Origin: a virus
Length of the DNA stretch: 64,000 bases
Reading direction: 5' to 3' (one strand)
IMG/VR virus record: IMGVR_UViG_3300043411_002995
Coordinates: 1 to 64,000 of that record
This document shows, one piece after another, positions 48,170-64,000 of the stretch. The position numbers were made by a program, and so were the translations under genes. The notes under the pieces were generated by a model. It was given only the letters and a program-made list of their open reading frames with translations. It did not search any database and was not told the DNA's origin. Position 1 is the first letter of the stretch. The number at the start of each line of letters is the position of its first letter.

Positions 48170-48416
48170 CCGACCTCGAGGATGGGGGGTCGAGGTCAAG
48201 TCGGGCCGCCGAGCTCGGTGGACCGCGCTGGTGCGCCCCGGGACCGAGACGGTCATGTCCACGTCCTTGGCCTGCGCGCGGGCCTGGGCGGCGGACTACG
48301 CGGCCCGCGGCTGCCTGGTGCGGCTGGTGGAGCTGCAGCAGCCCCGTGGTCATCCCTGCCGCCCGCCGGCGACCGCTGACGCAGCGCCGCTGCCGGGCCA
48401 GCTGGTGCTGTTCTAG
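48135..48416 (+). CDS. Small protein ending in a beta-clamp-binding-like motif (QLVLF)
   Basis: AAGGAG 10 nt before GTG; fills the gap to the convergent gene; C-terminal GQLVLF. Confidence 0.4.
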   Translation: MASPRSTSGRSSRPRGWGVEVKSGRRARWTALVRPGTETVMSTSLACARAWAADYAARGCLVRLVELQQPRGHPCRPPATADAAPLPGQLVLF

Positions 48417-48712
48417 GGCCGACGGCGGTTGGCCATCCGCCCCAGGGCCTTGAGGAGCACGGCGGCCAGGGCGCCGCCGGCCGCCCCCTTGCCCAGGGCC
48501 CCCAGCGCCGTCCCCTCCGGTCCGTCGTAGGGGTTGCCGGTGGCGAGGGCCTTGGCCTTGGAGGCGCCGTGGAGCACGCCCGAACTCAGGGCGCCGGTCG
48601 CCACCAGGCGCTCGACCAGGCGGTCTGGGCGCGGCGCCAGGAAGCCGGCGGTCTTCCGCAGCGGGCTGACCGCGGTCCGAACGAGCTCGTCGCTGAAGGC
48701 CTGGAGCTTCAT
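48413..48712 (-). CDS. Small virion protein with AFSDEL/KTA motif and glycine zipper
   Basis: MKLQAFSDELVRTA..RKTAG; GALGKGAAGGALAAVLL; TGATG overlap. Confidence 0.7.
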   Translation of the reverse strand: MKLQAFSDELVRTAVSPLRKTAGFLAPRPDRLVERLVATGALSSGVLHGASKAKALATGNPYDGPEGTALGALGKGAAGGALAAVLLKALGRMANRRRP

Positions 48713-49503
48713 CACTGGTTCGCGTAGAGCGGCTGGCCGGCGCCGGCGAGCCGCATGCGGATGGGGCGGATCTGGTCGAACTGCAGCGACACGCCCTCCA
48801 TCAGCAGGACCGAGCCCGAGGAGATCGAGAGCTGGTGGCCCTGGATGTAGCACTCCTCGAGGTAGACGGCGCCCACCGTCATGTCGAGCTGGTTGCGGAA
48901 GTAGATCGCCAGCCCGGTCGGCTGGTTGAAGATGTCCGACGCCAGGTTGAGCCACAGGTCGTCGTAGCCCGGGTTGTACTTCACCCGGTGCAGCTGGGAC
49001 TGCAGGAGGGGCAGGTCCAGCATCGAGGCGTTGGGGTCGGGCACCTCGACGCCGCCGACGTTGATCGTCGCGCCCTTGGGCTTGTGGTTGAACTGGAACG
49101 GCGCGTCCGCCGCCGACTGCTTGTAGTGAGCGTAGAGCGCCTTCATCAGCGACGGCCCGTGGTAGAGCACGCGGCCGAGGGTGACCGAGCCGACGGTCCG
49201 GCCCGGGATGAAGTAGCTGCGGTTCGAGCCGATCTCGAAGATGCGCTGCAGCTGCTTCGACTGCGAGAGGCCGACGTTCTCGAGGACGCCGATCGGGAAG
49301 ACCATGTCCCCTTCGTCGGTGGTGTCGAGATCGCCCTCGGCGCCGGGCGGGCCGCCGGTGATGTCCGTGAGGCGCGGCGGCCCGGCGGCGATGAGCGTCG
49401 TCTCGGCGGAGACGAACTCGCCGCCGAGCAGCTCGGCCTGGACGTGGTGGTTGTGGAAGTCCCAGTTGTTGAAGGACGTGGTGGCTGCGGGGCGAAGGGG
49501 CAT
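48712..49503 (-). CDS. Putative tail tube protein
   Basis: PIGVLENVGLSQ..QLQRIFEIGS.RSYFIPG, G.VYLEECYI; directly downstream of the sheath gene. Confidence 0.7.
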   Translation of the reverse strand: MPLRPAATTSFNNWDFHNHHVQAELLGGEFVSAETTLIAAGPPRLTDITGGPPGAEGDLDTTDEGDMVFPIGVLENVGLSQSKQLQRIFEIGSNRSYFIPGRTVGSVTLGRVLYHGPSLMKALYAHYKQSAADAPFQFNHKPKGATINVGGVEVPDPNASMLDLPLLQSQLHRVKYNPGYDDLWLNLASDIFNQPTGLAIYFRNQLDMTVGAVYLEECYIQGHQLSISSGSVLLMEGVSLQFDQIRPIRMRLAGAGQPLYANQ

Positions 49504-49532
49504 CGGCGGGTCTCCTTACCGGAACCGGTCCA

Positions 49533-52358
49533 TCAGACCAGGAGGGTCAGCGTGATGTTGTTGAGGGGCAGCGGCACGCTGATGTCGATGTCGACCTCGA
49601 CGGTGTCCGGCTGCGAGGAGGATTCCTCGATCCGCGACATCTGCCCGCCGCGGAGCGGCGCCCCGACGCGCGGCGCGCGCTGGGACTTGAGGAACTCGAT
49701 GCCGCCCTCGCCGCGGGTCTTCAGGACGTCCATCAGGCCGTCCGTGATGTTGTAGATCCCGAGGAACGGCCGGAACAGCCCGCGGAAGAACCGGGCGATC
49801 AGGTCGACGTTCTTCGTGACCGAGAACTCCTGGAAGTAGATGGTGGAGACGTCGGTGGTGAGCTGGTGGCGGATGCTCAGGGCGGCGTCGACCACCGGCT
49901 GGACGAACACCATGTTGCCGCCGCCGGCGATGGTGTCGAGCTGGGTGTCCGAGAACAGGTCGTCGGAGTGCTCGCGGCCGACGAAGCCGGTCACCGCCAG
50001 GTTGGTCATGCCGGCCTGGCTGGGCAGCCCGGCGGTGAGCCCGGCGATGACCGGCCCAGCGAAGTACCCCGGGACCTTCGTCGCCAGGGCGTTCACCGAG
50101 ATCGCCAGGACGTCGGGCCAGGTGTGGACGCACCGACGCGACGCGAACGACGTCGCGTAGCCGGCGATGAGCTGGGCCTGCTCGGTCAGGCTGAGGTCGC
50201 GGGTGATCCGGTACTCGACGTCCTCGAGCGTGCCGCCGAAGCCGGCCGTCGGGTCGGAGGCCAGGGTGAGCTGGCTCTCCGAGACGATCGCCTCGATCTC
50301 GTGGCGGGTGCCGGTGATGTACGCCTCCTCGTCCGCGGACGGCTCGATCGAGACGATGTCGAGCACGGTCAGCGTGGTGGTGGTGAGGCCGTTGAACTCC
50401 TCGGTCACCGGCACGGTCGTGTTGTCGGTCTTCACCTGGGTGGGCGAGATGACCGTCTCGATCACGTGGTCGTCGTTGTTGGCCCCGTTGGTGGCGCCGG
50501 CGACGCGCAGGACGCGGCCGACGTCGGCCGCCGTGAAGGCCGCGCCGAGGACGGTCCACACCCGCGAGGTGCCGTTGACGCCGTCCGCGTTGACGTCGCG
50601 CCCGGGCTCGCGGTTGATGCCGTAGACGGCCTGGGTGACGCCGCCACCGAAGGTCTCGTTGGCGCCGGGGGCCTCGACCGTCAGCACCGAGGTGGTGCTG
50701 ACGACCGTGCCGATCGTGAACGCGCCGTTGTTGCCGGCGTTGGCGGCGCCGCGCACGAAGAGCAGCTTGCCGACGTCGCCGGCGACGAAGGCCCCGTTGA
50801 CGAACGACCAGGCCTTGGTCGCCGCCACCACCGCGTCCGCGGCGTTGTGGGCGACCTCGCGGTCGAGGTCGCAGATCCACGCTCGCGTGGTCGACAGCAT
50901 GACCTCGGGGGTGTCGGGCTCCGGGTCGACCGTGACGCGCGCGCCGCTGACGATCGTGAGGATCTCGTACTCGACGTCGTTGAGGGCCGTGGTCGCGCCG
51001 TCGACGATGATGAACCGGCCGACGTCGGTGCCGGTGAAGGACGCCGCCGTCATCTGGATCACGTCGGCCGGCGCGTCGTCGAACCAGTCGCGCTCGTTGG
51101 GGGTGACCGAGCGGTGGACGCCCTCGACGGGGAGGTAGTCGGTGATCTCGAGGAAGTACCCGACGCCGACGTCGTCGGTGATGAACTGCCCGTTGGTGGG
51201 GTCCTTGAAGGTCAGGTTGGTCGCACCGCTGGTACCGTTGCCGGTGCCGGCGCTGGTCGCGACGCCGAGGCCGCTGGCCGGCACGACGACCTCGAGCTCG
51301 ACGAGCTTCCGGTTGAAGATGCCGACGCGCTCCTTGCCGACGGTCGACGCCGACATCCCATCGACGTGCGCCTTCACCAGCTGGTGCACCGCGGTGTTGT
51401 GGGTCATCACCGCGATGGCGTAGACGTCCTTGGCCTCGAGGTACTCGAGCGCGTCCTGGAACGCCTGCTCCTCGTCGTCGAGGAAGCCTTCGTCCAGGCC
51501 GACGAAGCTGACCTCGGTGGTCGTGTTCTGGATCGCCAGGTTGACGCCGTAGGCGCCGACGTTGGAGGGGACCACGGCGCCGACGCCGAAGACCGCCTCG
51601 ATCGAGTCGAGGTCGGTGAAGACGGTCAGGGCGTTGGCCAGGTCGGGGCGGATGGCGCGCCACGACAGGACGACGTTGCCCTCGACGACGTCGAGCGGGG
51701 TCGCGTCGGTCACCGACTGGAGGCCCGAGGCGATCTGGACGCCGGTCGCGGTCGGGGTGATGCTGCGGTCGCCGAACGAGGTGACGGGGTAGACCTCCTC
51801 CTCGCGGAACTCGAGCACGCGGTAGACGATGTTCGAGAGGGGCAGGCCTCCGCTCTGCCACTCGGCGGCGACGATCAGCTCGTTGTCGCTGTTCTTGCCG
51901 ATGACGAGCTTCCGCCCGAGGTCCGCGGCGGTGACGCCGCCGCCGGAGATGATGTCGACGTAGAACGTCGGGGCGCCGGCGGCATCGGGGTCGAACGCGG
52001 CGAACGCGTCGGTGGTCACGTCCTGGAAGAGGTTGGGCGTCGCCAGCTTCCCGGTGATGGCCTGCGCCTTCTTCACCAGGTAGGCGTCGGTCAGGGTCAC
52101 GCCGACCGGCTTGTGGGCGTTCGCCTCGGCCTCGGCCTCCGGCACGTCGGAGAGGTCGACGACGGCGCCGGTGGTCAGCCCCGTGTACGGGAAGATGCTG
52201 GTGCCGAGCTCGTCCTCGGAGTAGATCCCCGCCACCACCTCATCGGCGATCTGGAAGCCCGGGGCCACGACGCACACGGGGAGGCTGGGAAGGGACAGCG
52301 AGACGGCGGCATCCTGGAACTCCTGGATGACTTCGATTGCGGGGCGGCGGTAGGCCAT
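49533..52358 (-). CDS. Contractile tail sheath protein with inserted repeat domains
   Basis: MAY.RP.IEV.QEF N-terminus; C-terminal sheath domain (VPGYF...AG...P.Q..TN, IRHQLTT, EFS.TK..D, PLNNI.LTL). Confidence 0.85.
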   Translation of the reverse strand: MAYRRPAIEVIQEFQDAAVSLSLPSLPVCVVAPGFQIADEVVAGIYSEDELGTSIFPYTGLTTGAVVDLSDVPEAEAEANAHKPVGVTLTDAYLVKKAQAITGKLATPNLFQDVTTDAFAAFDPDAAGAPTFYVDIISGGGVTAADLGRKLVIGKNSDNELIVAAEWQSGGLPLSNIVYRVLEFREEEVYPVTSFGDRSITPTATGVQIASGLQSVTDATPLDVVEGNVVLSWRAIRPDLANALTVFTDLDSIEAVFGVGAVVPSNVGAYGVNLAIQNTTTEVSFVGLDEGFLDDEEQAFQDALEYLEAKDVYAIAVMTHNTAVHQLVKAHVDGMSASTVGKERVGIFNRKLVELEVVVPASGLGVATSAGTGNGTSGATNLTFKDPTNGQFITDDVGVGYFLEITDYLPVEGVHRSVTPNERDWFDDAPADVIQMTAASFTGTDVGRFIIVDGATTALNDVEYEILTIVSGARVTVDPEPDTPEVMLSTTRAWICDLDREVAHNAADAVVAATKAWSFVNGAFVAGDVGKLLFVRGAANAGNNGAFTIGTVVSTTSVLTVEAPGANETFGGGVTQAVYGINREPGRDVNADGVNGTSRVWTVLGAAFTAADVGRVLRVAGATNGANNDDHVIETVISPTQVKTDNTTVPVTEEFNGLTTTTLTVLDIVSIEPSADEEAYITGTRHEIEAIVSESQLTLASDPTAGFGGTLEDVEYRITRDLSLTEQAQLIAGYATSFASRRCVHTWPDVLAISVNALATKVPGYFAGPVIAGLTAGLPSQAGMTNLAVTGFVGREHSDDLFSDTQLDTIAGGGNMVFVQPVVDAALSIRHQLTTDVSTIYFQEFSVTKNVDLIARFFRGLFRPFLGIYNITDGLMDVLKTRGEGGIEFLKSQRAPRVGAPLRGGQMSRIEESSSQPDTVEVDIDISVPLPLNNITLTLLV

Positions 52359-52382
52359 CGTCGGTTCTCCTGGTCGCGGCGG

Positions 52383-53045
52383 CTACGGGGTGCTTATCCG
52401 GGTGACGACGGTGCGCAGCTTCTGATCGCCTTGCGGCTCGACGCTCCAGCGTCGTTGAACTCTCGCCTGGAAGGCGACGGGAACTACAGAGATCTCGGGT
52501 CGAGCGCCCCCCTTGACGAGGGCCTCTTCGCCCATCTGGGTGGCTTCGATCTTGAAGAAGCCCAGGTGGGAGGCCTGCATGATACCGCGACTGGCCAATT
52601 TCCGCAGGACGTCGCGGAGCGCCTGGAAGGATTCGAACAGGTACCCGGCGATGAGCTCGGCCTCCGCGCCCGACCGCGAGAAGCAGCTCAGGACCATGCT
52701 GCCTGCCACCAGATCCGTGTAGGTTCGCCGATCCGTTCGCAGGTCCAGCGACTGCATCTGGCGGAAGCCGCTCGTCCTCGACCACTGCATCGGCCCGCGG
52801 TTGGCGACGATCGCCGGCGTCGTCCCGACCCGGGCCAGGTTGAAGGCGTACTTGTCGCAGATCGTGATCTGGGTCTTCTCCTCCTCGGGGGACCAGACCA
52901 GGTTCCCGAGCGGGTTGCCCTCGTAGAACAGGAGCTGGGCCACCTCGAGGGCGAACCCCTTGATGACCTCGTGGGGCCAGACGTACCGACGGTCCTCGTC
53001 GTGGAGGCTGCGGGCGTTCTCCTGCTGCACGACCGGCTCGCTCAC
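52383..53045 (-). CDS. Putative tail terminator / neck protein
   Basis: Directly upstream of the sheath; PAIVANRG, SC.S..G.EAE.IA pattern. Confidence 0.55.
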   Translation of the reverse strand: MSEPVVQQENARSLHDEDRRYVWPHEVIKGFALEVAQLLFYEGNPLGNLVWSPEEEKTQITICDKYAFNLARVGTTPAIVANRGPMQWSRTSGFRQMQSLDLRTDRRTYTDLVAGSMVLSCFSRSGAEAELIAGYLFESFQALRDVLRKLASRGIMQASHLGFFKIEATQMGEEALVKGGARPEISVVPVAFQARVQRRWSVEPQGDQKLRTVVTRISTP

Positions 53046-53566
53046 GGGGCACCCGGGTGGCGGCGGTTGACGGTGGCCGTGGCCTGGTCGTAGGCGTCGA
53101 CCACGCCGTTCCGCAGGACGTCCGTCGTGGTCTGCTCCACGACCCGATCCTGCTCCTGCTGCTTCTGCTCACCAAACAGGGCGGCGAGCGAGATCGTGCG
53201 GAAGGTCAGCTTGGTCTCGCCGTCGGCCCCCTGGGCTGCGCTGGGCACCCCGGAGCCGGGCGCGAACAACTCCTCGACCGACCCGGCCTCGTCGCCGAGC
53301 TCGCCGGCGACCATCTCCGAGCTCGCGGCCAGGACCGCGCCCTGGTCCTCGGAGTCGATCACCATCCGGTCACCCTCGCTGGTCACGCGCACCGCCTGGG
53401 CCCGCAGGGCGGCCGCGACGTCGATGCCCGGGTCGATGCGACCACGCAAGCGGGTCTGGAGGTTGCCCGCCAGGATCGTCCGCGCCTCGGCGTCGACCTC
53501 ATCCAGCCGGGCGACGCCGGCGGTGTCCTTCGGGCCGAAGAAGATCCAGTCGTTGAACCCGCTCAC
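53042..53566 (-). CDS. Hypothetical virion morphogenesis protein
   Basis: Within the structural operon; GTGA overlap. Confidence 0.6.
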   Translation of the reverse strand: MSGFNDWIFFGPKDTAGVARLDEVDAEARTILAGNLQTRLRGRIDPGIDVAAALRAQAVRVTSEGDRMVIDSEDQGAVLAASSEMVAGELGDEAGSVEELFAPGSGVPSAAQGADGETKLTFRTISLAALFGEQKQQEQDRVVEQTTTDVLRNGVVDAYDQATATVNRRHPGAP

Positions 53567-53820
53567 TCACCGCCCCCGCTCTTCGAGGCGTAGTCCACCA
53601 TCTGGTTCGGCGAGGTCAGGGGCGTGGGCGCGCGCTTCGCGGACGCGGGCTTGGGCTGCAGCGGCGCACCGGACTTCAGCCCTGTCTTGGCGTTGGGGCC
53701 CTGGGTCTGGTCCATGACGTCAGCGACGCCGGCGTCGTACGGCGCCGGCGCCTCGTGCTGCTGGGGGAACGCCCCCAGCTTCACGAGCTCGTCCACGAAT
53801 CCACGGAGGTAGGGTCCCAT
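53563..53820 (-). CDS. Small virion protein with GFVDELVK motif
   Basis: MGPYLRGFVDELVKLG; TGATG overlap. Confidence 0.65.
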   Translation of the reverse strand: MGPYLRGFVDELVKLGAFPQQHEAPAPYDAGVADVMDQTQGPNAKTGLKSGAPLQPKPASAKRAPTPLTSPNQMVDYASKSGGGE

Positions 53821-55171: not shown

Positions 55172-55199
55172 GGGCTACTCCCGGCGTCGCCGGGGACGC

Positions 55200-55730: not shown

Positions 55731-55737
55731 GCCTGAA

Positions 55738-55767
55738 ACGGTAAGCCCGCGCAGGCGCCCTGGTCAA
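55738..55767 (-). promoter_or_regulatory. Sigma70-type promoter, leaderless
   Basis: TTGACC-18-TACCGT on the - strand, 7 nt before ATG 55730. Confidence 0.45.
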
Positions 55768-55814
55768 GGCGCGAGCGCGGGCCCCTCAGCCAGCGTCGGA
55801 TCAGCTCGAGCCGA

Positions 55815-56711
55815 TCAGGTCAGCGTCATCTTGGCCGCGGCGCGCAGGTTGCCGTAGCCCATGCCGACGTACTCCCAGGTCTGCCACGACACCATGTCAC
55901 CGCGCTTCTCGATGTAGAACTTGGTGTCGTTCAGGATGTAGAAGTTGCCGAGGTACTTCGGGTCCGTGAAGATGTACAGGGTGCCGGGCACCACGATCGA
56001 CGACTTGATCGTCACCACCAGCTTGTGGCCGAGGATGGTGTTGTACTTGTAGCCGTTGACCAGGATCTCGCTGGCCAGCGGGGAGCCGATCACGGCGCCC
56101 TCCTGGGTCATGAAGTCGTCCCAGTCGGCCTTGTGCATCAGGATGGTGCCGACGGCGAGCTCGTCGGTGTCCAGCGCCTTGAAGAGCTTGACCAGGTTCT
56201 CGCTGGTCGCCGGGCCGGCGGCCGCGGGGGCGATGGTCTTGCCGTTCGCCGCGATCACCGCGTCGGTGAACTCGATGAACTTGCCGTCCTCGATCTTCTG
56301 GATGTCCTTGACCGAGTTCTCCTCGATGACCTTGGTCACCGGGTAGTCGTAGGCCAGGAGCTCCGCCTCGTTCTTCTTGAACTTGTCGGACTCGATCTTG
56401 AAGAACGGGATCTCGTAGCGGTCGCTCTCGATGTACCGCTCGTGGGTCTTGCCCCGGAAGTTGACCGCGGCCGCCGAGCTCTGCGGCTCGATGTCGACGA
56501 TCTTGACCAGGGTGTCGTGGTTGACCGACCGCTGGCAGTCGGCCTTGGTGAGGTACTCCGGCGGCAGGATGCTGCGCACGAAGCTGACCTCGCGGAGGCG
56601 CTCGCGCACGAAGGCACCGCCGGCCTGGGCGGCCTTCTCGAGGCCGTCCGCCGTGTCCAGGCGCGAGACGAAGAGGTTGTTGAAGGTGGCCGCGTCGATC
56701 TGGGGGTCCAT
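55815..56711 (-). CDS. Major capsid protein (HK97 fold predicted)
   Basis: 298 aa; RLRE.SF.R.I.PP, YEIPFF.I, EL..YD, KDI..IED..F, LG.F..L.D, E.VGM..GN; strong codon bias; AGGAG RBS. Confidence 0.78.
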   Translation of the reverse strand: MDPQIDAATFNNLFVSRLDTADGLEKAAQAGGAFVRERLREVSFVRSILPPEYLTKADCQRSVNHDTLVKIVDIEPQSSAAAVNFRGKTHERYIESDRYEIPFFKIESDKFKKNEAELLAYDYPVTKVIEENSVKDIQKIEDGKFIEFTDAVIAANGKTIAPAAAGPATSENLVKLFKALDTDELAVGTILMHKADWDDFMTQEGAVIGSPLASEILVNGYKYNTILGHKLVVTIKSSIVVPGTLYIFTDPKYLGNFYILNDTKFYIEKRGDMVSWQTWEYVGMGYGNLRAAAKMTLT

Positions 56712-56764
56712 CTGGTCGTTCTCCTGGCGCTGAGGTGGTTGGTGGGGGTGGGCCTACCGTGGCC

Positions 56765-57271
56765 TCAGAGACCCGGCGACTCGTAGTGGAGGACGCCGCT
56801 GGCGACCTCGATGACGCGCCCGACGACGCCCTGCAGCTGGCGCGCGTCCATGGTCGCCGGGTTGGGGGCGTCGAGGTAGCCGCGGTCCTCGGCGGCGTCG
56901 AACACGACGACCAGGAGGTAGCCGGGGGCGAAGGTGCCGCCGGTGTTGTAGAACGTGGTCTTGGCCTGGTACGTCCCGCTCAGGACGGTGATCGCGCCGG
57001 TGGCCAGGGTGTCGGACTGGCCATCGCCGCCCGGCACGCGGAGGGTCCAGCAGACCTTGGCGCCGAGGGCGGGCGAGTTGATGTCGTCGGCGACGACGAC
57101 CTTGGCGGCCTTGGTGACGCCACCGCTGGTGGCGGGCTTGACCCACTCGCCCGGATCGAACCGGAGGGTGGTGTCGACGACGAGCAGGTCCTGGCGGAGC
57201 ATCTCGTCGCCGCCACGGACGATCTCGAAGTCGCGGGCGGCGCGGACATCCTTGGGAACGGGGAAGGTCAT
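56765..57271 (-). CDS. Putative head decoration (cement) protein
   Basis: Immediately upstream of MCP; GEWV, TG.ITVL.G.Y.A.T, G..L.V, VG.V. Confidence 0.6.
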   Translation of the reverse strand: MTFPVPKDVRAARDFEIVRGGDEMLRQDLLVVDTTLRFDPGEWVKPATSGGVTKAAKVVVADDINSPALGAKVCWTLRVPGGDGQSDTLATGAITVLSGTYQAKTTFYNTGGTFAPGYLLVVVFDAAEDRGYLDAPNPATMDARQLQGVVGRVIEVASGVLHYESPGL

Positions 57272-57293
57272 CTGTCTCTCCTGGGGTCTGGGG

Positions 57294-57620
57294 TCAGTCG
57301 GCCAGCGTGTGGAAGAACGCCGTCACCGCAGAATCGCCGCCGGCAACCGTGCCGCCAGCGCTGGCGACCTTGCCGAGATCCGGCATGTCGACGTCGAGCT
57401 CGAGCGCCTGCTCGAGCACCTCGAGGTTCTTCTCGAGGAGCGAGGCCACCTTGATCTGGAAGGCCTCGTAGGACTCGAAGGGCGGGATCTTCCCCCGCTC
57501 CACCATCGAGAACGCGAGCTTCGTCGCGTCCTCGCGCTTCTGCGCCCGGTCCAGCGCGTCAGCCGCCTCCTTCAGGAGGTCGTTCTTGTCGTCGATCTTG
57601 ATCACGTCGTTGGTCGCCAT
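57294..57620 (-). CDS. Putative scaffold-like/internal head protein
   Basis: Helical; KEAA, KLA, two KVAS; C-terminal FF..L; GAGGAG RBS. Confidence 0.6.
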   Translation of the reverse strand: MATNDVIKIDDKNDLLKEAADALDRAQKREDATKLAFSMVERGKIPPFESYEAFQIKVASLLEKNLEVLEQALELDVDMPDLGKVASAGGTVAGGDSAVTAFFHTLAD

Positions 57621-57710
57621 GTTCTCCTCGGGGTCGTGTCGATGATCGGCTGACCGTCCGGGAGTCGCAGCTTGAGATCCCATCCTCTCACGGGATCTCA
57701 ATACGTCAAC

Positions 57711-58568
57711 TCAGCCGTTGACGATGACCACGCCGGACTTCTTCTTCTCGGGCTCGGACTTCCCGCCGTTGATCGCGCGGTACGCGAGCGCGCCGCCGCC
57801 GAGGTACAGCGCCGGCTTCTTCATCTTCTTGAGCTGGTCGTTGGTCACGCCGAGCTGCGTGCCGCCGATGTTGACGCCGAGCGCCTTGCCACCGGCCGCC
57901 CCGCCGCTCGCCGCCGAGGCGGCGGGCGTGACCGCCTGCCGGAGCTCCTTCATGGCGGGCAGGTGGGCGAAGCCCTTGTTGTCGCCCAGGATCGCGTGGA
58001 CGGTGGCGTCGGGGTACTTCTTCCGGAGCTTCTCGACGAACTTCATCTTCTCGATGTCGCCGAGGCCATCGTAGGCCCGCGCCGAGCTCTTCCAGCTGCG
58101 GAGCGCGCTCTCCGCATGCTGCTTCGCCTTGTCGACGGTGGACCCGGCGCGACTGGAGCGCAGGCTCGAGCCGATCTCGCCGAAGAACCGGCGGATGCCG
58201 CCGGGTGCCGCGGCCTTCTCGAGGAACTCGGCGATCGCCTCGGGCGAATGGCCGGCCTCGAGCGCCACCTTGATGAAGGCGGCGGTGTCCACGGTGGGCG
58301 CCGCCGGCGCCGCCGTCTTGGTCTGGCCGCCGTCGATGGCGGCGATCTCCGCCATCGTCCGACGGATGATCTCGACGGACGCGACCTTCTCGGCCAGGGT
58401 CGCGTTCCCCGCCGCGACCTGGTCGGCCGGCGAGGCCTCGGCTGCACGGCGACACCGCGCGGCGAGCTTGGAGAAGTCGGGCTTCGCCGGCGCCGCCGTC
58501 TTGGTGTGCCGAGCGCCGAGGTTGTTCACCCCGGTCTCGTTGAGCAGCTCGTCGAGTGTGAAGCCCAT
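57711..58568 (-). CDS. Putative internal head protein (K-x-A repeats, C-terminal hydrophobic helix)
   Basis: Two TKTAA, EKVAS, EKAAA; ALYLGGGALAY. Confidence 0.65.
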   Translation of the reverse strand: MGFTLDELLNETGVNNLGARHTKTAAPAKPDFSKLAARCRRAAEASPADQVAAGNATLAEKVASVEIIRRTMAEIAAIDGGQTKTAAPAAPTVDTAAFIKVALEAGHSPEAIAEFLEKAAAPGGIRRFFGEIGSSLRSSRAGSTVDKAKQHAESALRSWKSSARAYDGLGDIEKMKFVEKLRKKYPDATVHAILGDNKGFAHLPAMKELRQAVTPAASAASGGAAGGKALGVNIGGTQLGVTNDQLKKMKKPALYLGGGALAYRAINGGKSEPEKKKSGVVIVNG

Positions 58569-58606
58569 GTGAGTTCCCCCGGATCGAAGATCGGAAGCGA
58601 CGGGGC

Positions 58607-59092
58607 TCAGCGGCCCATGTGCTTGGCGAGCAGCCGCGACACGTACTGCGGATCCGCCGCCATCTTGGCGAGGATCTTCTTCTTCCGCGCCCGGACCTTG
58701 GCGGCCGAGGTCTTCTCCTCGCCGCTGTCCTCCTTGGACTCGCGCGGCTCGGTCTTCTCCTCGTACTCGGAGTCGTCCTCCTCGTCGCCCTCCTTCTTCT
58801 CCTTCTTCTTGCCGCCCATGGCCGCGGCCATGGCCTCCTCGAAGGCGGACTTCTTGTCCGCCTCGCCGGCGCCCGGCATCGCCTCGTCGACGGCGATCTT
58901 CACCATGTCGGCGAAGACGTGGTGGGCGAGGGTACGACCGATCGCGTCGTAGTCCTGCGCCTGCTTGAGGAGGCCGGGGTCGACCTGGCTGAGGTCGCGG
59001 GCGGGCGGGAGCCCCTGCGCGGCGCGCACCTGCGCGACCTTCTCGTGATCGCGCGACTGCATCGCGCCGAAGACTGCCTTGAGCGAGTTCAT
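58607..59092 (-). CDS. Putative internal head/scaffold protein
   Basis: KQAQDYDAIGRTLAH..F.D..KIA; acidic and basic low-complexity tracts. Confidence 0.65.
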   Translation of the reverse strand: MNSLKAVFGAMQSRDHEKVAQVRAAQGLPPARDLSQVDPGLLKQAQDYDAIGRTLAHHVFADMVKIAVDEAMPGAGEADKKSAFEEAMAAAMGGKKKEKKEGDEEDDSEYEEKTEPRESKEDSGEEKTSAAKVRARKKKILAKMAADPQYVSRLLAKHMGR

Positions 59093-59138
59093 GGTGTGCT
59101 CCGCGTTCGTGGGGGGAGGTGGGTCGGCTACGCCAGGC

Positions 59139-59852
59139 TCAGGCCTGGAGGTCGCGGACCGTGGCGAAGCCGAGCGGCGAGCCGCCACCCAGGCCGATCG
59201 CGGCCGCCTCGGGGTCGGTGCCGGTGCCCTGGCCGGCCGAGATGGTCTTGGTCGGGGCGAGGGTGTCCGAGTAGGTCTGCTTCGGGCCGGGGCCCGAGGT
59301 GACCATCTTCTCGTCGTGGTTCGCCGACCCGGCGAAGTTGGTCTCGAGCGTGGGCAGGCCGCGCTCGCCGAGCGCCGGGGTCTTCGCCCCCGACTCCGAC
59401 TCGGTCATCTGGTTGTCGGGGGCGGTCGTCGCCAGGCCCTCGGCCAGCTTGTGGAACTCGGAGAAGAAGCCGCGCGCCATGATGCGGCCGGCGGCGTCGT
59501 ACTCCTGCGCGACCTTCATGATCTGGCCGTCGTCCTCGTCGGCGACCTGCTCCTCGGCCTCGGCGGCCGCGAGCTTCTCCGCCATGGCGGCGAAGTCGAC
59601 GTCGTCCTGCTCGACCTCGGGCGCCGGCGCGTGAGCGGCGGCCGCGGCCTGCTTGACGTGATCCTGATCGGTGAGCGCGAGGTAGAGGCTGGCGAGCGAG
59701 TTCATCTGGTCTCCTCCGGAGGCGAGCTTGGTGTGGTCGCCGCCGGTGGCGGCAGGCTTGCGCGCCGGCGGCGCGCCGGTCGCGGAATCGTGGGTCGTGG
59801 TCTCGGTGCTGGCGGACGCGAACTTGTTCATCAGGTCGCTGAGGGTGGGCAT
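59139..59852 (-). CDS. Putative internal head/scaffold protein
   Basis: KVAQEYDAAGRIMARGFFSEFHKLA; AAGGAG RBS. Confidence 0.7.
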   Translation of the reverse strand: MPTLSDLMNKFASASTETTTHDSATGAPPARKPAATGGDHTKLASGGDQMNSLASLYLALTDQDHVKQAAAAAHAPAPEVEQDDVDFAAMAEKLAAAEAEEQVADEDDGQIMKVAQEYDAAGRIMARGFFSEFHKLAEGLATTAPDNQMTESESGAKTPALGERGLPTLETNFAGSANHDEKMVTSGPGPKQTYSDTLAPTKTISAGQGTGTDPEAAAIGLGGGSPLGFATVRDLQA

Positions 59853-59854
59853 GG

Positions 59855-61672
59855 TCAGATCTCCTTCATGCGCCGCGCGAGCCGCTGGACCGACTCGAGG
59901 ATCGAGGCGTCGAGAGCCGGATCGCTCATCAGCCCGCCGAACTTGGTGAGGTGGTGAGTCGCGCGATCGTGCGGTGCTGCAACAGACGCGAGTCGCTCGA
60001 AGCCTCCACGGCTCCCGGCTTGCGATCGTTGCTGTTGAACACCTGCATGGATGTACGCGAGTGGGATCAATCCTGTGATCCCGGCCGTCTTGCGCTGATG
60101 GTAGGCTGGGCCGTTTTTTGCGTCAAGTCCGGCACCTGTGCCGTGGGGCTCCAGATCCCGCGGCGCCCCCAGCTGTTGCGCTGCCACGGTCGCCCCGACA
60201 CCTGCGCTGATCAGGAGCGGGAGCATCCAAGGGTGCTTCGCGATCGCGCGCACCGGCGACGGCGCCTTCTCGACCAGCTGGGGGAACGCCCGACGGAAGA
60301 CCATGAACCCGGCGGCGAGTGCGAGGCTGGCGGGCACCACGCCGGGCATACCCGACGAGAGCCGTCGCTGCTCGTTCGTCATGGGATACCACTGGCTGTC
60401 GCGGTTGTACCCCTCGATCTCCCCGCGCTTCTCCATCCGCTCGAGGCGGGCGGCGAGGATCTCGGGATAGCAGCTCCGGTCGGCGATGTAGGGGCGCAGC
60501 TGCAGCGCGACCTTCTCGCTGACGTCGTGCTCGCTCAGGTGCTCGAGCTCGCGTGCCCACTTCGGCATCGGGCCAGGCCGGTGCTCGTCGAACACCAGGC
60601 GGTGGGCCGCCAGCTTGTCCGCGAGGGCACGGGCGCCCTGCTTGACCAGGATGATCCGCTGGAACTCCTGCGGGCGCAGGTCGATCCCCAACGCGGCGAG
60701 CGTGGCGAAGATCTCGCGCAGCGGGAAGCCCGTGAGCTGGTTGAGCAGCGCCGGCGGCAACGCCGGCTCGGTCGACTTGACCGCACCGGCGTCCTCCATG
60801 AAGGCGTCGACCTTCGCCTGGTCGGACGGCGTCACGCCCTCGATCTTCGTCTCGCCCGCCGGGACCTCCTTGGTCAGGTCGGCGGTCTTGCGCGCCGAGC
60901 TCGCCTTCTCGGCGGCCGCGTACTTGGCGTAGAAGCTCTCGCCGAGCTCGGCCGAGCTCGGCCGGATCTCGTAGATGCACCCATCGTGCGCGACCTTCTT
61001 CAAGACGTGGCTCGCCTTCTCGGCACCGATCGTCACGAAGGAAATGTCGAAGAACTTCGGCTTGTCGTTGAACGCGAAGACCCGCCGTCCGTCCGGCAGG
61101 ATCTTGTTCATCTGGTAGCGGAGGTGCGGGCAGTACTCGGCCCGGTTCTTCGCGCGGTTGCCGCAGACGGAGCAGCGGTCCCACGGGACCCGGCACCCCA
61201 TCGAGACGTCCCAGTACCGGTTCGCGGCGAGGTCGCCGAGGATGTCCTGGCACTTCGCGTCGTCGACGCGGACGATCAGCAGGACGCGGTGCATGCCCGG
61301 GTCGTAGGCCGAGAGCGTGACCTTCTCGCCGTACGCCCGCGCCGGGTCCTTGTTGACGTGGTGCTTGAACGGGTAGGCGTAGTGCTGGAACGTCTCGTAG
61401 CCGTACTCGGGACCGGGGTGGCGCAGCGCCTCCTCGGGGAAGTAGTCGCCGTTGACGTTCGACCCGTAGTACTCGCCCGACCCCATCGCGTCGATGAGCA
61501 GCTGGGTCTTGCCCGGGATCGGCGCCGCCGATCGCAGGTACTGCTCGATGGACGCGGGGAGCTCGCGCGCCATCTTGATGTGGCCGATCGACCGCTCGAG
61601 GTTGGCCTCGATCGGGAAGATGTGCGGGCCGGTCCGCGCGTCGTACCCAGCGTAGTTGATCAGCTTGTACAA
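59855..61672 (-). CDS. Putative prohead (capsid maturation) protease with C-terminal extension
   Basis: N.NGDYF..E.L, F.HH.NKD...G.V, VSMGC.V..D.CS.CG...C.H, FFDIS.V..GA consistent with the His/Ser HK97/assemblin-type pattern; TTG start. Confidence 0.7.
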   Translation of the reverse strand: MYKLINYAGYDARTGPHIFPIEANLERSIGHIKMARELPASIEQYLRSAAPIPGKTQLLIDAMGSGEYYGSNVNGDYFPEEALRHPGPEYGYETFQHYAYPFKHHVNKDPARAYGEKVTLSAYDPGMHRVLLIVRVDDAKCQDILGDLAANRYWDVSMGCRVPWDRCSVCGNRAKNRAEYCPHLRYQMNKILPDGRRVFAFNDKPKFFDISFVTIGAEKASHVLKKVAHDGCIYEIRPSSAELGESFYAKYAAAEKASSARKTADLTKEVPAGETKIEGVTPSDQAKVDAFMEDAGAVKSTEPALPPALLNQLTGFPLREIFATLAALGIDLRPQEFQRIILVKQGARALADKLAAHRLVFDEHRPGPMPKWARELEHLSEHDVSEKVALQLRPYIADRSCYPEILAARLERMEKRGEIEGYNRDSQWYPMTNEQRRLSSGMPGVVPASLALAAGFMVFRRAFPQLVEKAPSPVRAIAKHPWMLPLLISAGVGATVAAQQLGAPRDLEPHGTGAGLDAKNGPAYHQRKTAGITGLIPLAYIHAGVQQQRSQAGSRGGFERLASVAAPHDRATHHLTKFGGLMSDPALDASILESVQRLARRMKEI

Positions 61673-61676
61673 GCGA

Positions 61677-62516
61677 TCACTTCCACCGGGCGTTCCCGCC
61701 CGCGACGGACGCTGACGGCCTGACCCGCGGCGTCTGCGGCGCCTGCTCGCTCCGAGCTTCGGCCGCCTGCATCCGCTGCACCTTCTCCTCGATGGTGACC
61801 GGCCCACGCTTCGGCGCCGTCGGCCGGACTGCGCCGCCCATCCGCCCCTCGCGGATCTCGCCCACGTTGCGGTTGGCATCGGACCAGCGCTGAGCCTTGT
61901 TCGAGGGGGCGTTGTAGGCGGCCTCGGCGCGCGCCTTGGTCGCGGTGTAGTCCGTCCTCCGCGCCTGCATCCGCGCCTTGCGCGCGTCGGCCTCGGCCTG
62001 CGTGAGCTGCTTCCCAGAACCTGACGCGCGCGCCTGGGCGTTGACCAGCTCGCCGCCGACCATCACCTTGCGGCCCGGCGCGTTGTTGGCGTCGAACTTC
62101 TTGTTGTAGGCCTGCTCGCTGATGACGCGCTGCGCGCGCTGCGGGGCTGTCTCCCACGGCACGCCGGGGTCACCGCGACCGCCACCGCCCCCCTGCTTCT
62201 TCGGGGTGGCGGGCGGTGGAGTCGGATCTCCGGCCTTGCTCGGGCGGTAGCCGGGCGACGGACGCCATCCCTGGGGTGCGTTCTTCGCCGGCGACTCCAT
62301 CTTCTGGGTCGGGATGGCGCCGAGCAGGTTGCCGCCGGGCGCGCCCATCTGGTTGGGCGGCTTGGGCGCCGGCGCGCCGGGGACGCCGGTCGAAGGAGGG
62401 CGAACGATGCCGCCGGGCGGCGGCGGACGTGGAACCGACGGCACGCCAGCCGGCGCACCCCAAGGCCCTGCGACCTTGAGGAGCTCGTCGGCGAAGCCTG
62501 CGAGGTATCGGTTCAC
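61677..62516 (-). CDS. Pro/Gly-rich putative internal head protein
   Basis: MNRYLAGFADELLKVAG; low complexity. Confidence 0.65.
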   Translation of the reverse strand: MNRYLAGFADELLKVAGPWGAPAGVPSVPRPPPPGGIVRPPSTGVPGAPAPKPPNQMGAPGGNLLGAIPTQKMESPAKNAPQGWRPSPGYRPSKAGDPTPPPATPKKQGGGGGRGDPGVPWETAPQRAQRVISEQAYNKKFDANNAPGRKVMVGGELVNAQARASGSGKQLTQAEADARKARMQARRTDYTATKARAEAAYNAPSNKAQRWSDANRNVGEIREGRMGGAVRPTAPKRGPVTIEEKVQRMQAAEARSEQAPQTPRVRPSASVAGGNARWK

Positions 62517-62528
62517 GTCGATGGCCGA

Positions 62529-62933
62529 TCAGCCGCCCTGCGGGCGCGGCGGGAGCGGACCGTTGCCCAGGGTGACCTTGGCCTTCGGCGCGGCCTTCGG
62601 CGCGGGCATGCCCGGGTTCTTGTGCTGGCCGGTGACCGGGTTCATCTTGGTCTTGCTGCCGAACGCCTGGCCGGGGGCGTTGGTGTCGGTGGGCGCCGGG
62701 ACCTTGGGCACGCCGCCGCCCGGGCCCTTGCGGCCGGCGCGGCCACCCGCGAACGGGTCGTAGCCCGAACCGGTGGCGTCGGCGAGCTTGCTCAGCTCGT
62801 CGGCGAACGCGCGCGCGGTGATCCGGCCCGCGGCGTCCTCCTCCTCCGCCTGCTTGATGATCTCGGCAGCCTGCTTCTCGAGCTCGGCATCCTTCGACGC
62901 CATGGTGTCGTACACGTCCGTGAGGGTTCGCAT
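62529..62933 (-). CDS. Putative internal head protein
   Basis: EKQAA..KQAEEEDAAGRITARAFADELSKLA; AAGGAG RBS. Confidence 0.7.
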   Translation of the reverse strand: MRTLTDVYDTMASKDAELEKQAAEIIKQAEEEDAAGRITARAFADELSKLADATGSGYDPFAGGRAGRKGPGGGVPKVPAPTDTNAPGQAFGSKTKMNPVTGQHKNPGMPAPKAAPKAKVTLGNGPLPPRPQGG

Positions 62934-62951
62934 CTCCGTGTCTCCTTCGGG

Positions 62952-63941
62952 CTAGCGCCCCGTGATCAGTTTTCGCACGCCGCCCAGAACAGTACCAGCG
63001 GCGTTGACAGGCGGCTTGCGCCCGAACATCCGCCCCACCCGGCGCGTCGCGCCGCCGGCGAGGCCCAGGCCCATCTTGCCGAGGACCAGGGCGGCGATGG
63101 CCGACCCCTGTGGGCTGCTGGTGATGGCCTTCACGGCCTCGTCGGCCTTGCCGGCCGCGCCGCGCGCGGCGATGCCGACGTTCTTCTTGAACTCGCTGCC
63201 GCGATCGCCGATGTAGTTCGAGGCGCGGTTCGCGTACTCCTCGGCGGAGGCGGCGCTCTTCTCGATCCCGAAGGACGTGCCGAGGAACCGGGGCGAGGCG
63301 TGCTTGCCCATCTGCGAGCTCGAGGTTGCGCGGAGCGACATCGAGCCGCCCTCCACGAGCCCGTGCTTCGCGCCGGGGGCGCCGTGGCTGGGCGCGCGCG
63401 CCTCGCTGCTGTGGAAGCGCTCGCCACCGGCCTCGAGCGGCGCCGGCTGCTCCTTGGCCGGACGGTGGAACCCGGTCGGCAGGCCGCTGTCGGCGTCCCA
63501 GTCGCTGGGCGCCGCGCCCGCGCACTTCACCGCGCCCTTCTTCTTGGGCTGGCCGGTGCCGTACATGCCGCCGCCGGCCTCCTCGCCACCGGAGTCCATC
63601 CCGCCAGGGGTCACGGCGGGGCTGGCGCCGGCCGGCTCGCTCGGCTTGGCCGGCTTGGTCGACGGGTCGTCCTTCGCGGCCTCCGCCATCTTCTGGTGGA
63701 AGGTCGCGTCGTCACGCCCGGGGAGGTCGCGGAAGAACCGCCCGCCGCGCGGCTGCGCGGCCTTCTGGAAGAACATCCCATCGCCAGCGACCTTCCCGAG
63801 CGGCTGGCGCTCGGGGTTGGTCTGCGGGTGCTTCTTCTCGGGGAGGTCGCTCATGTTCGGGGTCTCCTTCGCCCACTCTCGCGCCTTCTTGGGGTTCGTG
63901 GCGAAGAAGAGGCGCTGCTGGGCCTTGGACTCGAAGGGCAC
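62952..63941 (-). CDS. Putative internal head protein (MPF.SKAQ.R N-terminal motif, K-x-A repeats, glycine zipper)
   Basis: MPFESKAQQRLFFA..P..A.EW..ETP...LPEK; GKVA, QKAA, QKMA, GKHA, EKSA; IAALVLGKMGLGLAGG. Confidence 0.7.
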   Translation of the reverse strand: MPFESKAQQRLFFATNPKKAREWAKETPNMSDLPEKKHPQTNPERQPLGKVAGDGMFFQKAAQPRGGRFFRDLPGRDDATFHQKMAEAAKDDPSTKPAKPSEPAGASPAVTPGGMDSGGEEAGGGMYGTGQPKKKGAVKCAGAAPSDWDADSGLPTGFHRPAKEQPAPLEAGGERFHSSEARAPSHGAPGAKHGLVEGGSMSLRATSSSQMGKHASPRFLGTSFGIEKSAASAEEYANRASNYIGDRGSEFKKNVGIAARGAAGKADEAVKAITSSPQGSAIAALVLGKMGLGLAGGATRRVGRMFGRKPPVNAAGTVLGGVRKLITGR

Positions 63942-63945
63942 GCGA

Positions 63946-64000
63946 TCAGCCTTCGCTGGCGCCGCCGCGGAGGCGCTCCTGCAGGGCGGTGTGGTAGGCC
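63946..64000 (-). CDS. C-terminal fragment of an upstream structural-region gene (truncated by window edge)
   Basis: Open frame AYHTALQERLRGGASEG-stop. Confidence 0.45.
   Translation of the reverse strand, partial: AYHTALQERLRGGASEG

What the first reader, a model, noticed from the sequence alone, without database searches (positions are those of the whole stretch)
48413..63941. Pervasive K-x-A motif across head proteins plus a cognate protease: a possible undescribed capsid-maturation cleavage code
Seen: nearly every gene from 55.8 to 63.9 kb, plus 53563, 48413 and 38224, carries one or several K-x-A/G motifs, usually followed by A/S/G. Examples are EKAAQ near the MCP N-terminus, TKTAA, EKVAS, GKVAS, TKLAS, KQAAA, RKTAG, EKSAA and LKKVAH, the last lying right after the protease catalytic domain. 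Established: T4 gp21 and phiKZ gp175 process many head proteins at short motifs ending in Glu, and the related herpesvirus assemblins cut after Ala. Inference: the 59855-61672 protease cleaves itself, the capsid protein and about ten internal proteins after K-x-A, an Ala-specific, assemblin-like multi-substrate maturation system in a phage.
Basis: partly seen in the sequence, partly recalled or inferred. Interest (0 to 1): 0.8.

Follow-up and report, generated by a model that had tools for sequence, protein, structure and literature searches.

The report
Lys-x-Ala head-protease cleavage code
The head-building proteins of this uncultured phage and its distant relatives carry far more Lys-x-Ala motifs than chance allows, most likely marking where the phage's T4/herpesvirus-type capsid protease cuts (after Ala, not after Glu as in studied phages), but no cut has been measured.

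Summary
In the ten minus-strand genes at 55.8-63.9 kb, K-x-A occurs 49 times against 26.5 expected. It ranks first of 1,355 gapped dipeptides. Other spacings, the reverse order, K-x-G, R-x-A and all x-Glu motifs are not enriched, nor are tail and plus-strand genes.

The signal replicates independently. It ranks first in about half of 37 related viral contigs (35-68% GC) and in the head genes of cultured phages Arash and D69. The same scan on T4 recovers its known I/L-x-E motif.

The 59855-61672 gene product models as a T4 gp21 / herpes assemblin fold (Z 9.8 and 9.6). Its invariant His104 and Ser157 align with T4 His85 and Ser140. A K-x-A sits at a fixed distance after the catalytic domain in nearly all sampled family members, and at residues 26-28 of the capsid protein in 18 of 20 orthologs.

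Best reading (about 0.72): K-x-A is this protease's P3-P1 cleavage code. That is a new predicted specificity for a known enzyme kind, in a family of thousands of clusters. No cut has been measured and the scissile bond is inferred. I found no paper describing the motif. Earlier reports of this scan noted the same motif in at least six other genomes.

The parts
59855..61672 (-). Prohead protease, 605 aa (TTG start, MYKLINYAG...). Catalytic domain is aa 1-228; a 377-aa C-terminal extension carries further K-x-A sites and one hydrophobic segment.
   Evidence: Weak phrog_18299 'head maturation protease' match. Homologs in Arash gp222, D69 0270 and phage G gp19. AF2 model pLDDT 83. VIA matches: T4 gp21 Z 9.8 and VZV protease Z 9.6. 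Eight K-x-A sites. Close homologs start at the same MYKL, which supports the 61672 start.
60989..61672 (-). Catalytic domain. Invariant residues: His104/His105 (codons 61358-61363), Ser157 (61202-61204), Asp209 and Ser211 in FFDIS, and a Cys167-x2-Cys170...Cys181-x-His183 zinc-ribbon-like insert that T4 gp21 lacks.
   Evidence: Invariant columns of alignment A1. hhalign pairs H104 with T4 H85 and S157 with T4 S140, at a weak score. T4 gp21 has no Cys.
60989..60997 (-). K226-V-A228, the conserved site at the end of the catalytic domain; predicted self-release site.
   Evidence: K-x-A lies 19 residues after FFDIS in the window, the aligned relatives and phage G gp19. 140 of 142 family representatives have K-x-A within 45 aa after FFDIS; in about 131 of them the K-x-A counted first sits at offset +19 or at the in-fold offset +12.
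61568..61576 (-). K33-M-A35, a near-invariant N-terminal site in a low-confidence loop; predicted N-terminal propeptide boundary.
   Evidence: K33 and A35 are conserved in at least 90% of A1. Residues 28-34 have pLDDT below 50.
55815..56711 (-). Major capsid protein (HK97 fold), 298 aa, with a single K-x-A at residues 26-28 (nt 56628-56636).
   Evidence: phrog_2522 E 1.2e-15. AF2 model pLDDT 80.5. Foldseek matches D3 and HK97 capsids at E 1e-10 to 1e-9. The site is conserved in 18 of 20 orthologs down to 30% identity.
59139..59852 (-). 237-aa head protein with 7 K-x-A sites, all in the first 135 residues; candidate scaffold or internal protein. Carries the DAAGR...F-x-x-E-x-x-K-L-A module.
   Evidence: 7 sites against 2.0 expected, p 0.004; sequence.
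58607..59092 (-). 161-aa head protein with 5 K-x-A sites, the DAIGR...KIA module and an acidic/basic tail.
57711..58568 (-). 285-aa head protein with 7 K-x-A sites, six of them in the first 120 residues.
57294..57620 (-). 108-aa head protein with 4 K-x-A sites spaced about 17-27 residues apart.
   Evidence: 4 sites against 1.3 expected.
56765..57271 (-). 168-aa protein next to the MCP (possible decoration protein) with 2 K-x-A sites at residues 45 and 54.
61677..62444 (-). 255-aa Pro/Gly-rich protein with one K-x-A and three K-x-G; weak member of the set.
62529..62933 (-). 134-aa protein with 5 K-x-A sites and the DAAGR...FADELSKLA module.
   Evidence: 5 sites against 1.9 expected.
62952..63941 (-). 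329-aa protein with 9 K-x-A sites.
   Evidence: 9 sites against 4.0 expected, p 0.02.
63946..64000 (-). 3' end of a 283-aa gene that runs to 64797 outside the window. It is an HExxH protein (weak Peptidase_Mx1 match) with FQDELVKVAS and 3 K-x-A sites.
53563..53820 (-). 85-aa protein that begins with the tag MGPYLRGFVDELVKLGA and has 2 further K-x-A sites.
48413..48715 (-). 100-aa protein that begins MMKLQAFSDELVRTA and has K-T-A at residue 21.

Best explanation
K-x-A is the substrate recognition and cleavage motif of the phage's own prohead protease, encoded at 59855-61672. This enzyme has the T4 gp21 / herpesvirus assemblin fold.

Proposed course of events inside the assembled prohead:
- The enzyme frees its catalytic domain by cutting at K33-M-A35 and K226-V-A228.
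- It trims about 28 residues from the major capsid protein.
- It chops the scaffold-like and internal head proteins, which carry 4-9 sites each, into fragments that can leave or rearrange.
- It removes F-x-D-E-L-x-K-x-A leader tags from small cargo proteins.

Shown here: the motif excess, its restriction to head genes, its conservation, and the protease fold with conserved His and Ser.

Inferred: that proteolysis occurs at all. The cut position is also inferred. Lys is taken as P3 and Ala as P1, so the cut falls after Ala. The argument is by analogy: the determinants of T4 (I/L-x-E), phiKZ/SPN3US ([SAG]/A-x-E) and herpesviruses (V/L-x-A) all sit at P3 and P1. My confidence in the after-Ala position specifically is about 0.55.
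For: 1. Excess and specificity of K.A in the window's head genes:
- 49 against 26.5, rank 1 of 1,355.
- Other spacings and orders are flat.
- Block shuffles give z 4.6-5.0.

2. Method check. The identical scan on T4 head genes ranks the experimentally known gp21 motif first and second (I.E, then L.E).

3. Independent replication:
- K.A ranks first in the head modules of about 19 of 37 related contigs with 35-68% GC, with z up to 8.7.
- Arash: 46 against 21.1, rank 1 of 1,174. D69: 51 against 22.4, rank 1 of 1,124. Flanking control genes are flat.

4. Most accessory head proteins have no detectable homologs beyond the close relatives, yet the motif excess persists in the distant relatives.

5. 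Site conservation:
- 33% of the window's K.A sites are kept in ortholog pairs of 75% identity or less, against 1-16% for most control dipeptides.
- The MCP site is kept in 18 of 20 orthologs while the residue before Lys varies (E, Q, P, D, T, V).

6. Link to this enzyme:
- K-x-A follows the catalytic domain in 140 of 142 family representatives.
- Another K-x-A sits in a disordered N-terminal loop.
- SPN3US gp245 self-cleaves C-terminally at its own motif, and propeptides there carry several motif copies (PMC5694885).

7. Fold and active site:
- T4 gp21 5jbl Z 9.8 and VZV protease Z 9.6; the next unrelated fold scores 5.8 or less.
- H104 aligns with T4 H85 and S157 with T4 S140.

8. Herpes assemblins cut after Ala: PrV YLQA-T and VQA-S (PMC4498786).
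Against: - There is no experimental N-terminus for any member. The Arash paper gives only coverage percentages, and its supplement holds no peptide lists.
- The profile alignment to T4 gp21 is statistically weak (E 0.18). The catalytic geometry could not be measured because model coordinates are not exposed.
- The MCP site lies inside a predicted helix, residues 21-42, in the monomer model. A protease needs an extended substrate.
- The pooled logo ([LFM]-E-K-[TLVI]-A-[ASE]) also fits an amphipathic helix.
- Two orthologs (L014, L027) lack the MCP site.
- Large proteins, including the RNA polymerase, show no avoidance of K-x-A.
- K.E was conserved as often as K.A in the ortholog test.
Confidence: 0.72

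Rival explanations
1. K-x-A is a non-cleaved short linear motif. It could be a docking or targeting signal for incorporation into the prohead core, or a recurrent feature of amphipathic scaffold helices. The head proteins would then stay intact at these positions.
For: The pooled context shows hydrophobic residues at -2 and +1 and acidic residues at -4, -3 and -1, which fits a helix. The MCP site is inside a predicted helix. The motif ends a shared F-x-D-E-L-x-K-x-A tag and a DAAGR...KLA module that look like targeting elements.
Against: - Many sites are followed by Pro/Gly/Ser-rich, non-helical stretches, such as TKTAAPAKP, RKPAATGG, GKVASAGG and EKAAAPGG.
- Helical proteins elsewhere in the genome show no excess.
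- The near-universal site in the linker just after the protease domain matches the self-cleavage position of related proteases (PMC5694885).
- The same kind of signal in T4 is a proven cleavage motif.
- Targeting and cleavage are not exclusive: the T4 capsid-targeting sequence is both (my own knowledge).
Confidence: 0.14
2. The motif is cut by a different protease: one of the HExxH proteins encoded just upstream (63946-64797, 64794-66281), or a host enzyme.
For: Two HExxH proteins lie in the module. One has a weak Peptidase_Mx1 match at E 1.7e-4, below the Pfam cut-off.
Against: BLAST finds homologs of the HExxH proteins only in the seven closest contigs. The sampled Arash and D69 head genes contain no HExxH. 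The K-x-A excess spans the whole clade, which was defined by the gp21-like protease. The protease itself carries the conserved sites at its domain boundaries.
Confidence: 0.05
3. Same enzyme and same motif, but the scissile bond is elsewhere, for example after Lys (K|x-A), with Ala at P2'.
For: Nothing here fixes the bond. Lys and Ala are equally conserved.
Against: In all characterised enzymes of this fold, the two determinants two residues apart are P3 and P1: T4 I/L-x-E (recovered), SPN3US A-x-E (PMC5694885), PrV V-Q-A|S (PMC4498786). The residue after Ala is biased to small residues, A and S, as at herpes P1'. Arg does not substitute for Lys (R.A 13 against 21.1), which is unusual for a basic S1 pocket.
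Confidence: 0.1
4. The excess is an artefact of composition, paralogous repeats or post-hoc motif choice.
For: The genome is Ala-rich (14% Ala, 7% Lys in the head set). Three proteins share one module that ends in K-L/I-A.
Against: The excess survives whole-protein and block shuffles. The motif is the top result of an unbiased scan. It is absent at other spacings. It replicates in genomes of 35-53% GC and in non-homologous proteins.
Confidence: 0.02

Closest known systems
Bacteriophage T4 prohead protease gp21 (MEROPS S77 by my memory; PDB 5jbl) with substrates gp22, gp67, gp68, gp23, gp24, IPI-III
   Same: Best structural match (Z 9.8, 130 residues, rmsd 2.9). His and Ser fall at aligned positions. 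The gene sits in the head module. Many head proteins carry a two-determinant i/i+2 motif in several copies. The enzyme's own termini carry the motif. Short N-terminal tags end in the motif, like the T4 capsid-targeting sequence.
   Different: The motif is K-x-A, not (I/L)-x-E, and Glu-ending motifs are not enriched here. About 14% identity. A Cys/His zinc-ribbon-like insert is absent from the Cys-free gp21. A 377-aa C-terminal extension is present.
phiKZ gp175 / SPN3US gp245 prohead proteases (PMC5694885, PMC10052503)
   Same: A large phage with a virion-type RNA polymerase. The protease processes many head and ejection proteins. Propeptides carry several motif copies. The protease auto-cleaves C-terminally.
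   Different: Those enzymes cut after Glu (A-x-E, or S/A/G-x-E). No sequence match to them was seen here.
Herpesvirus assemblins (MEROPS S21; PrV pUL26N, VZV, HCMV)
   Same: Same fold (VZV Z 9.6, HCMV Z 7.0). Predicted Ala at P1 with small residues at P1'. The protease is fused to a long C-terminal part and released at a site just after the catalytic domain, like the R-site (PMC4498786).
   Different: P3 is Lys here, not Val/Leu; V.A and L.A are not enriched. There are many substrates rather than a scaffold only. The third catalytic residue is unresolved. This is a bacterial virus.
Head proteases of cultured relatives: Salmonella phage Arash gp222, Vibrio phage D69 VPHD69_0270, Bacillus phage G gp19
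   Same: True homologs (31-41% identity) with the same FFDIS...K-V-A-S/N linker site. Arash and D69 show the same K-x-A excess in head genes, at rank 1.
   Different: In the records read here, Arash gp222 is annotated as 'structural protein', D69 0270 as hypothetical and phage G gp19 carries no product name. A 2025 paper calls phage G gp19 a head maturation protease (PMC12484599). None of the papers read reports a cleavage motif.

Membership tests
gp21/assemblin-fold capsid maturation serine proteases (T4 gp21 type) | Characteristic protease fold | tested here: met
   AF2 model pLDDT 83, pTM 0.75. VIA wide search: 5jbl Z 9.8 with 130 residues aligned, 1vzv Z 9.6, 8j3s Z 7.0; unrelated MCE domains score 5.8 or less. 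Foldseek alone was weak, E 0.15-0.75.
gp21/assemblin-fold capsid maturation serine proteases (T4 gp21 type) | Catalytic His and Ser at the family positions | tested here: met
   H104 and S157 are invariant in 20 sequences. They pair with T4 H85 and S140 in hhalign, but that alignment is weak (E 0.18). That H85 and S140 are the T4 catalytic residues is my own knowledge.
gp21/assemblin-fold capsid maturation serine proteases (T4 gp21 type) | Triad geometry and identity of the third residue | not testable with these tools
   Model coordinates are not returned. Asp209 in FFDIS (compare GVDAV in T4) is a guess.
gp21/assemblin-fold capsid maturation serine proteases (T4 gp21 type) | Encoded in the head module between the packaging genes and the MCP | tested here: met
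   Large terminase at 70531-72306, protease at 59855-61672, MCP at 55815-56711, tail sheath at 49533-52358. Gene order matches Arash and D69.
MEROPS S77/S80-type specificity (T4 gp21, phiKZ gp175) | Cleavage after Glu in (I/L)-x-E or (S/A/G)-x-E | tested here: not met
   L.E 14 against 11.3, I.E 7 against 6.1, A.E 25 against 23.6, S.E 12 against 9.0, G.E 14 against 15.1. The same scan finds I.E and L.E in T4. This is sequence evidence only.
Herpesvirus assemblin (S21) | (V/L)-x-A|S consensus | tested here: not met
   V.A 21 against 19.5 and L.A 25 against 24.4, while K.A is 49 against 26.5. Only the inferred P1 Ala and the small P1' residue resemble it.
Herpesvirus assemblin (S21) | Ser-His-His triad | tested here: inconclusive
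   His104 and His105 are both invariant, and so is His183, but His183 lies in the Cys cluster. There is no geometry to decide.
Self-processing prohead protease | Autocleavage at its own consensus, C-terminal to the catalytic domain | not testable with these tools
   The K-x-A site is conserved at that position. Cleavage itself needs an experiment.

The most novel reading that the evidence does not exclude
A very large, mostly uncultured phage lineage has re-tuned the T4/herpes-type capsid protease to cut after Ala in Lys-x-Ala. The protease family holds 3,491 50%-identity clusters at E 1e-10 or better. The lineage combines this code with a portable F-x-D-E-L-x-K-x-A leader to load and then release some twenty head and cargo proteins, possibly including the virion RNA polymerase machinery. 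This would show that P1-Ala specificity, so far a herpesvirus hallmark, also exists in bacterial viruses of the same enzyme fold.
Probability: 0.45. Interest if true: 0.78.

Novelty: new variant of a known kind. Interest (0 to 1): 0.68.

Why it matters
Capsid maturation proteases of tailed phages and herpesviruses share one fold. Every phage enzyme of the T4 gp21 and phiKZ type studied so far cuts after Glu, while the herpes enzymes cut after Ala.

A phage clade with a Lys-x-Ala code would do three things:
- It would give a third, predictable specificity for this fold. That would let mature virion proteins, propeptides and cargo tags be annotated by sequence in thousands of uncultured large phages.
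- It would narrow the specificity gap between phage and herpesvirus proteases.
- It can be tested directly, because three cultured relatives exist: Arash, Vibrio phage D69 and phage G.

The portable tag plus cleavage site could also serve as a capsid-loading handle in phage engineering.

Tried and rejected
- Megablast of the module against cultured phages found nothing.
- Pfam gave only a sub-threshold Phage_capsid match for the MCP and nothing for the protease.
- A profile search of PDB sequences gave nothing relevant.
- Foldseek alone was not significant for the protease. The VIA wide search resolved it.
- K-x-G as part of the motif is rejected: 13 against 17.5.
- Glu-ending motifs are rejected.
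- V/L-x-A and R-x-A are rejected.
- I looked for avoidance of K-x-A in large, possibly packaged proteins and found none.
- The HExxH proteins as the responsible enzyme are rejected, because they are confined to close relatives.
- The Arash supplement holds annotation only, with no peptide data.
- The phage G capsid paper (J Mol Biol 2020) is not held, so I could not check whether it reports processed N-termini.
- Literature searches for a K-x-A prohead motif found nothing. That covers the held library only.
- ORF 38224-38403 is rejected as a member: two sites in 59 aa is within chance.
Full report
**Setting.**
- The window is the first 64 kb of a 111.7-kb IMG/VR virus record, estimated about 71% complete, with 68% GC.
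- I built a gene map from third-position GC.
- It gives a minus-strand block that runs from the large terminase (70531-72306, outside the window) to the tail genes. In order it holds:
  - several small proteins;
  - the protease gene (59855-61672);
  - five small proteins;
  - the HK97-fold major capsid protein (55815-56711; phrog_2522 E 1.2e-15; AF2 model matched to D3 and HK97 capsids);
  - neck and tail genes, including the sheath (49533-52358).
- The only cultured relatives of the protease are Salmonella phage Arash gp222, Vibrio phages D69, D181 and D148, and Bacillus phage G gp19. Arash and D69 have the same gene order.

**The observation.**
- In the ten genes from 55815 to 63941, K-x-A occurs 49 times against 26.7 expected from per-protein shuffles (z 4.9).
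- Shuffling only within blocks of 10-25 residues, which keeps local Lys/Ala richness, gives z 4.6-5.0. None of 1,000 such shuffles reaches 49.
- In an unbiased scan of all residue pairs at gaps 0-4, K.A ranks first of 1,355.
- KA, AK, A.K, K..A and K...A are at expectation. So are V.A and L.A. R.A is depleted and K.G is not enriched.
- The motif is therefore Lys-x-Ala specifically, not a low-complexity effect, and Gly is not part of it.
- Plus-strand genes (75 against 73.4) and the neck/tail genes (11 against 8.3) show nothing.
- The context is [L/F/M] at -2, often Glu at -1, V/L/T/Q between Lys and Ala, and A/S/Q after Ala.

**Does the scan find real cleavage motifs?**
- The same script run on T4 gp20, 67, 68, 21, 22, 23 and 24 ranks I.E first and L.E sixth.
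- On the core proteins gp67, 68, 21 and 22 it ranks I.E first and L.E second.
- That is the experimentally established gp21 motif.
- In the window no Glu-ending motif is enriched.

**Independent replication.**
- A pattern search with the catalytic domain returned 37 viral contigs with 37-88% identity and 35-68% GC.
- K.A is the top gapped dipeptide of the head module in about half of them, with z up to 8.7. It is usually flat outside the module.
- In Arash (53% GC) the head genes gp218-226 have 46 K.A against 21.1 expected (rank 1 of 1,174, p 1.8e-6).
- In D69 the figure is 51 against 22.4 (rank 1 of 1,124, p 1.5e-7).
- The flanking RNA polymerase, helicase and tail genes are at expectation.
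- Phage G shows a weaker excess (28 against 16.8). Eight of those sites are in gp19 itself.
- Most accessory head proteins of the window have detectable homologs only in the seven closest contigs. The excess in distant relatives therefore sits in proteins with no recognisable similarity, which is the behaviour of a short linear motif under selection.
- In ortholog pairs of 75% identity or less, 33% of the window's K.A sites are retained exactly, against 1-16% for most control dipeptides. K.E, at 32%, is an exception that I attribute to a few conserved MCP positions.

**Two anchor sites.**
- The MCP carries a single K-x-A at residues 26-28. It is kept in 18 of 20 orthologs down to 30% identity, while the residue before Lys varies (E, Q, P, D, T, V). 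Glu is therefore not required.
- The protease carries K226-V-A228 nineteen residues after the FFDIS strand.
  - The same site is present in all aligned relatives but one, and in phage G gp19.
  - A profile search of 1.84 billion representative proteins found 4,557 clusters, 3,491 of them at E 1e-10 or better.
  - Of the 142 best representatives that have FFDIS, 140 have K-x-A within 45 residues after it. In about 131 the K-x-A counted first lies at offset +19 or at the in-fold offset +12.
- A further near-invariant K33-x-A35 lies in a loop of pLDDT below 50, ahead of the folded core.

**The enzyme.**
- The N-terminal 238 residues model with pLDDT 83.
- Foldseek gave only weak herpes-protease and T4 gp21 rows.
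- An exhaustive structural alignment puts T4 gp21 (5jbl, Z 9.8, 130 residues, rmsd 2.9) and VZV protease (Z 9.6) clearly above unrelated folds, which score 5.8 or less.
- A profile alignment to T4 gp21 is statistically weak (E 0.18). It nevertheless pairs the invariant His104 with T4 His85 and Ser157 with T4 Ser140. Their catalytic role in T4 is from my own knowledge.
- The family differs from the Cys-free gp21 by an invariant Cys167-x2-Cys170...Cys181-x-His183 insert right after the catalytic Ser.
- It also differs by a 377-residue C-terminal extension with more K-x-A sites.
- I could not measure triad geometry because coordinates are not returned.

**Mechanism.**
- In T4, SPN3US/phiKZ and herpesviruses, the two specificity determinants are two residues apart and correspond to P3 and P1. 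In those systems the protease frees itself by cutting its own consensus just after the catalytic domain, and propeptides carry several copies of the motif so that small fragments can leave the shell (PMC5694885, PMC10052503, PMC4498786).
- The pattern here matches on every point, with Lys at P3 and Ala at P1.
- I therefore read K-x-A as the cleavage code of this protease. The cut after Ala is the likelier bond but remains inferred.

**Caveats.**
- No N-terminus has been measured. The Arash paper gives coverage only (MCP 86.6%), with no peptide lists.
- The MCP site falls in a predicted helix.
- The logo is compatible with an amphipathic helix.
- Two orthologs lack the MCP site.
- There is no avoidance of the motif in large proteins.

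**Rivals.**
- A non-cleaved docking or helix motif remains possible (about 0.14). It does not explain the sites followed by Pro/Gly-rich linkers, nor the protease-linker site.
- The two HExxH proteins upstream cannot account for a clade-wide signal, because they exist only in close relatives.
- Composition or paralogy artefacts are excluded by the controls.

**Novelty.**
- I found no paper describing a Lys-x-Ala prohead-protease motif in the held library. The phage G capsid paper could not be read.
- Earlier follow-up notes of this scan reached the same reading on at least six other genomes. Those are AI notes, not independent evidence. Everything stated here rests on my own tests.
- I class the finding as a new variant (a new predicted specificity) of a known kind of enzyme.

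Noticed in passing
L030:9917-12994, L024:8660-11797; many representatives: Several protease homologs are 930-1,450 aa because inteins (Intein_splicing, Hint and LAGLIDADG hits) interrupt the catalytic domain. The split often falls at profile position 158, immediately after the catalytic Ser-Met-Gly and before a Cys. Others split near positions 66 and about 100.
   Followed up: partly
window 63946-64000, continuing to 64797 of the contig; also contig 64794-66281: Two adjacent head-module proteins carry HExxH motifs (FHELAHT, LHELGHA). The first has a sub-threshold Peptidase_Mx1 match. Both are found only in the seven closest relatives.
   Followed up: partly
window 62529-62933, 59139-59852, 58607-59092; tags at 53563-53820 and 48413-48715; contig 70037-70534 and 105500-105790: Three head proteins share a module, DA[AI]GR-x-x-A-x-x-F-x-x-E-x-x-K-[LI]-A. 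Four small proteins start with (M)...F-x-D-E-L-V-K-[LV]-G-A. These may be capsid-targeting leaders that end in the cleavage motif. In the small-protein tags the motif is K-x-G-A.
   Followed up: partly
contig 67336-68271, 93055-94200, 90485-91813, 73209-75389 (outside the window): More K-x-A-rich proteins lie beyond the window: 9 sites against 2.4 expected, 14 against 3.5, an N-terminal cluster, and a C-terminal cluster in a 726-aa portal-sized protein. The 311-aa protein is the homolog of Arash gp220 and D69 0268, which have 10-11 sites each.
   Followed up: partly
contig 79574-85867, residues 201-225 of the 2,097-aa RNA polymerase: Five K-x-A sites fall within 25 residues of a Lys/Ala-rich stretch (NKAASKKKANESVKKAAEYFAADKAAD). 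This could be a propeptide boundary or just a low-complexity linker.
   Followed up: no
window 60989-61672 (protease residues 165-183): An invariant D-x-C-x2-C...Y-C-x-H cluster is inserted after the catalytic Ser. Some relatives carry an extra insert of about 40 residues inside it. It is probably a structural zinc site, and T4 gp21 lacks it.
   Followed up: partly
L014:13644-14669 and L027:15289-16305: The MCPs of the 35%-GC subclade have Q-A-E-L-Q-E or Q-Q-E-L-T-E where all other orthologs have K-x-A, although K-x-A is still the top motif in L027's head module.
   Followed up: no
window 59855-60988 (protease residues 441-459): One strongly hydrophobic 19-residue segment lies in the protease's C-terminal extension. 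Similar segments occur near the C-termini of Arash gp222 and D69 0270. It may be a core or membrane-like anchor.
   Followed up: no
Two sites at this composition are within chance, and the gene lies among plus-strand non-structural genes.
   Followed up: yes
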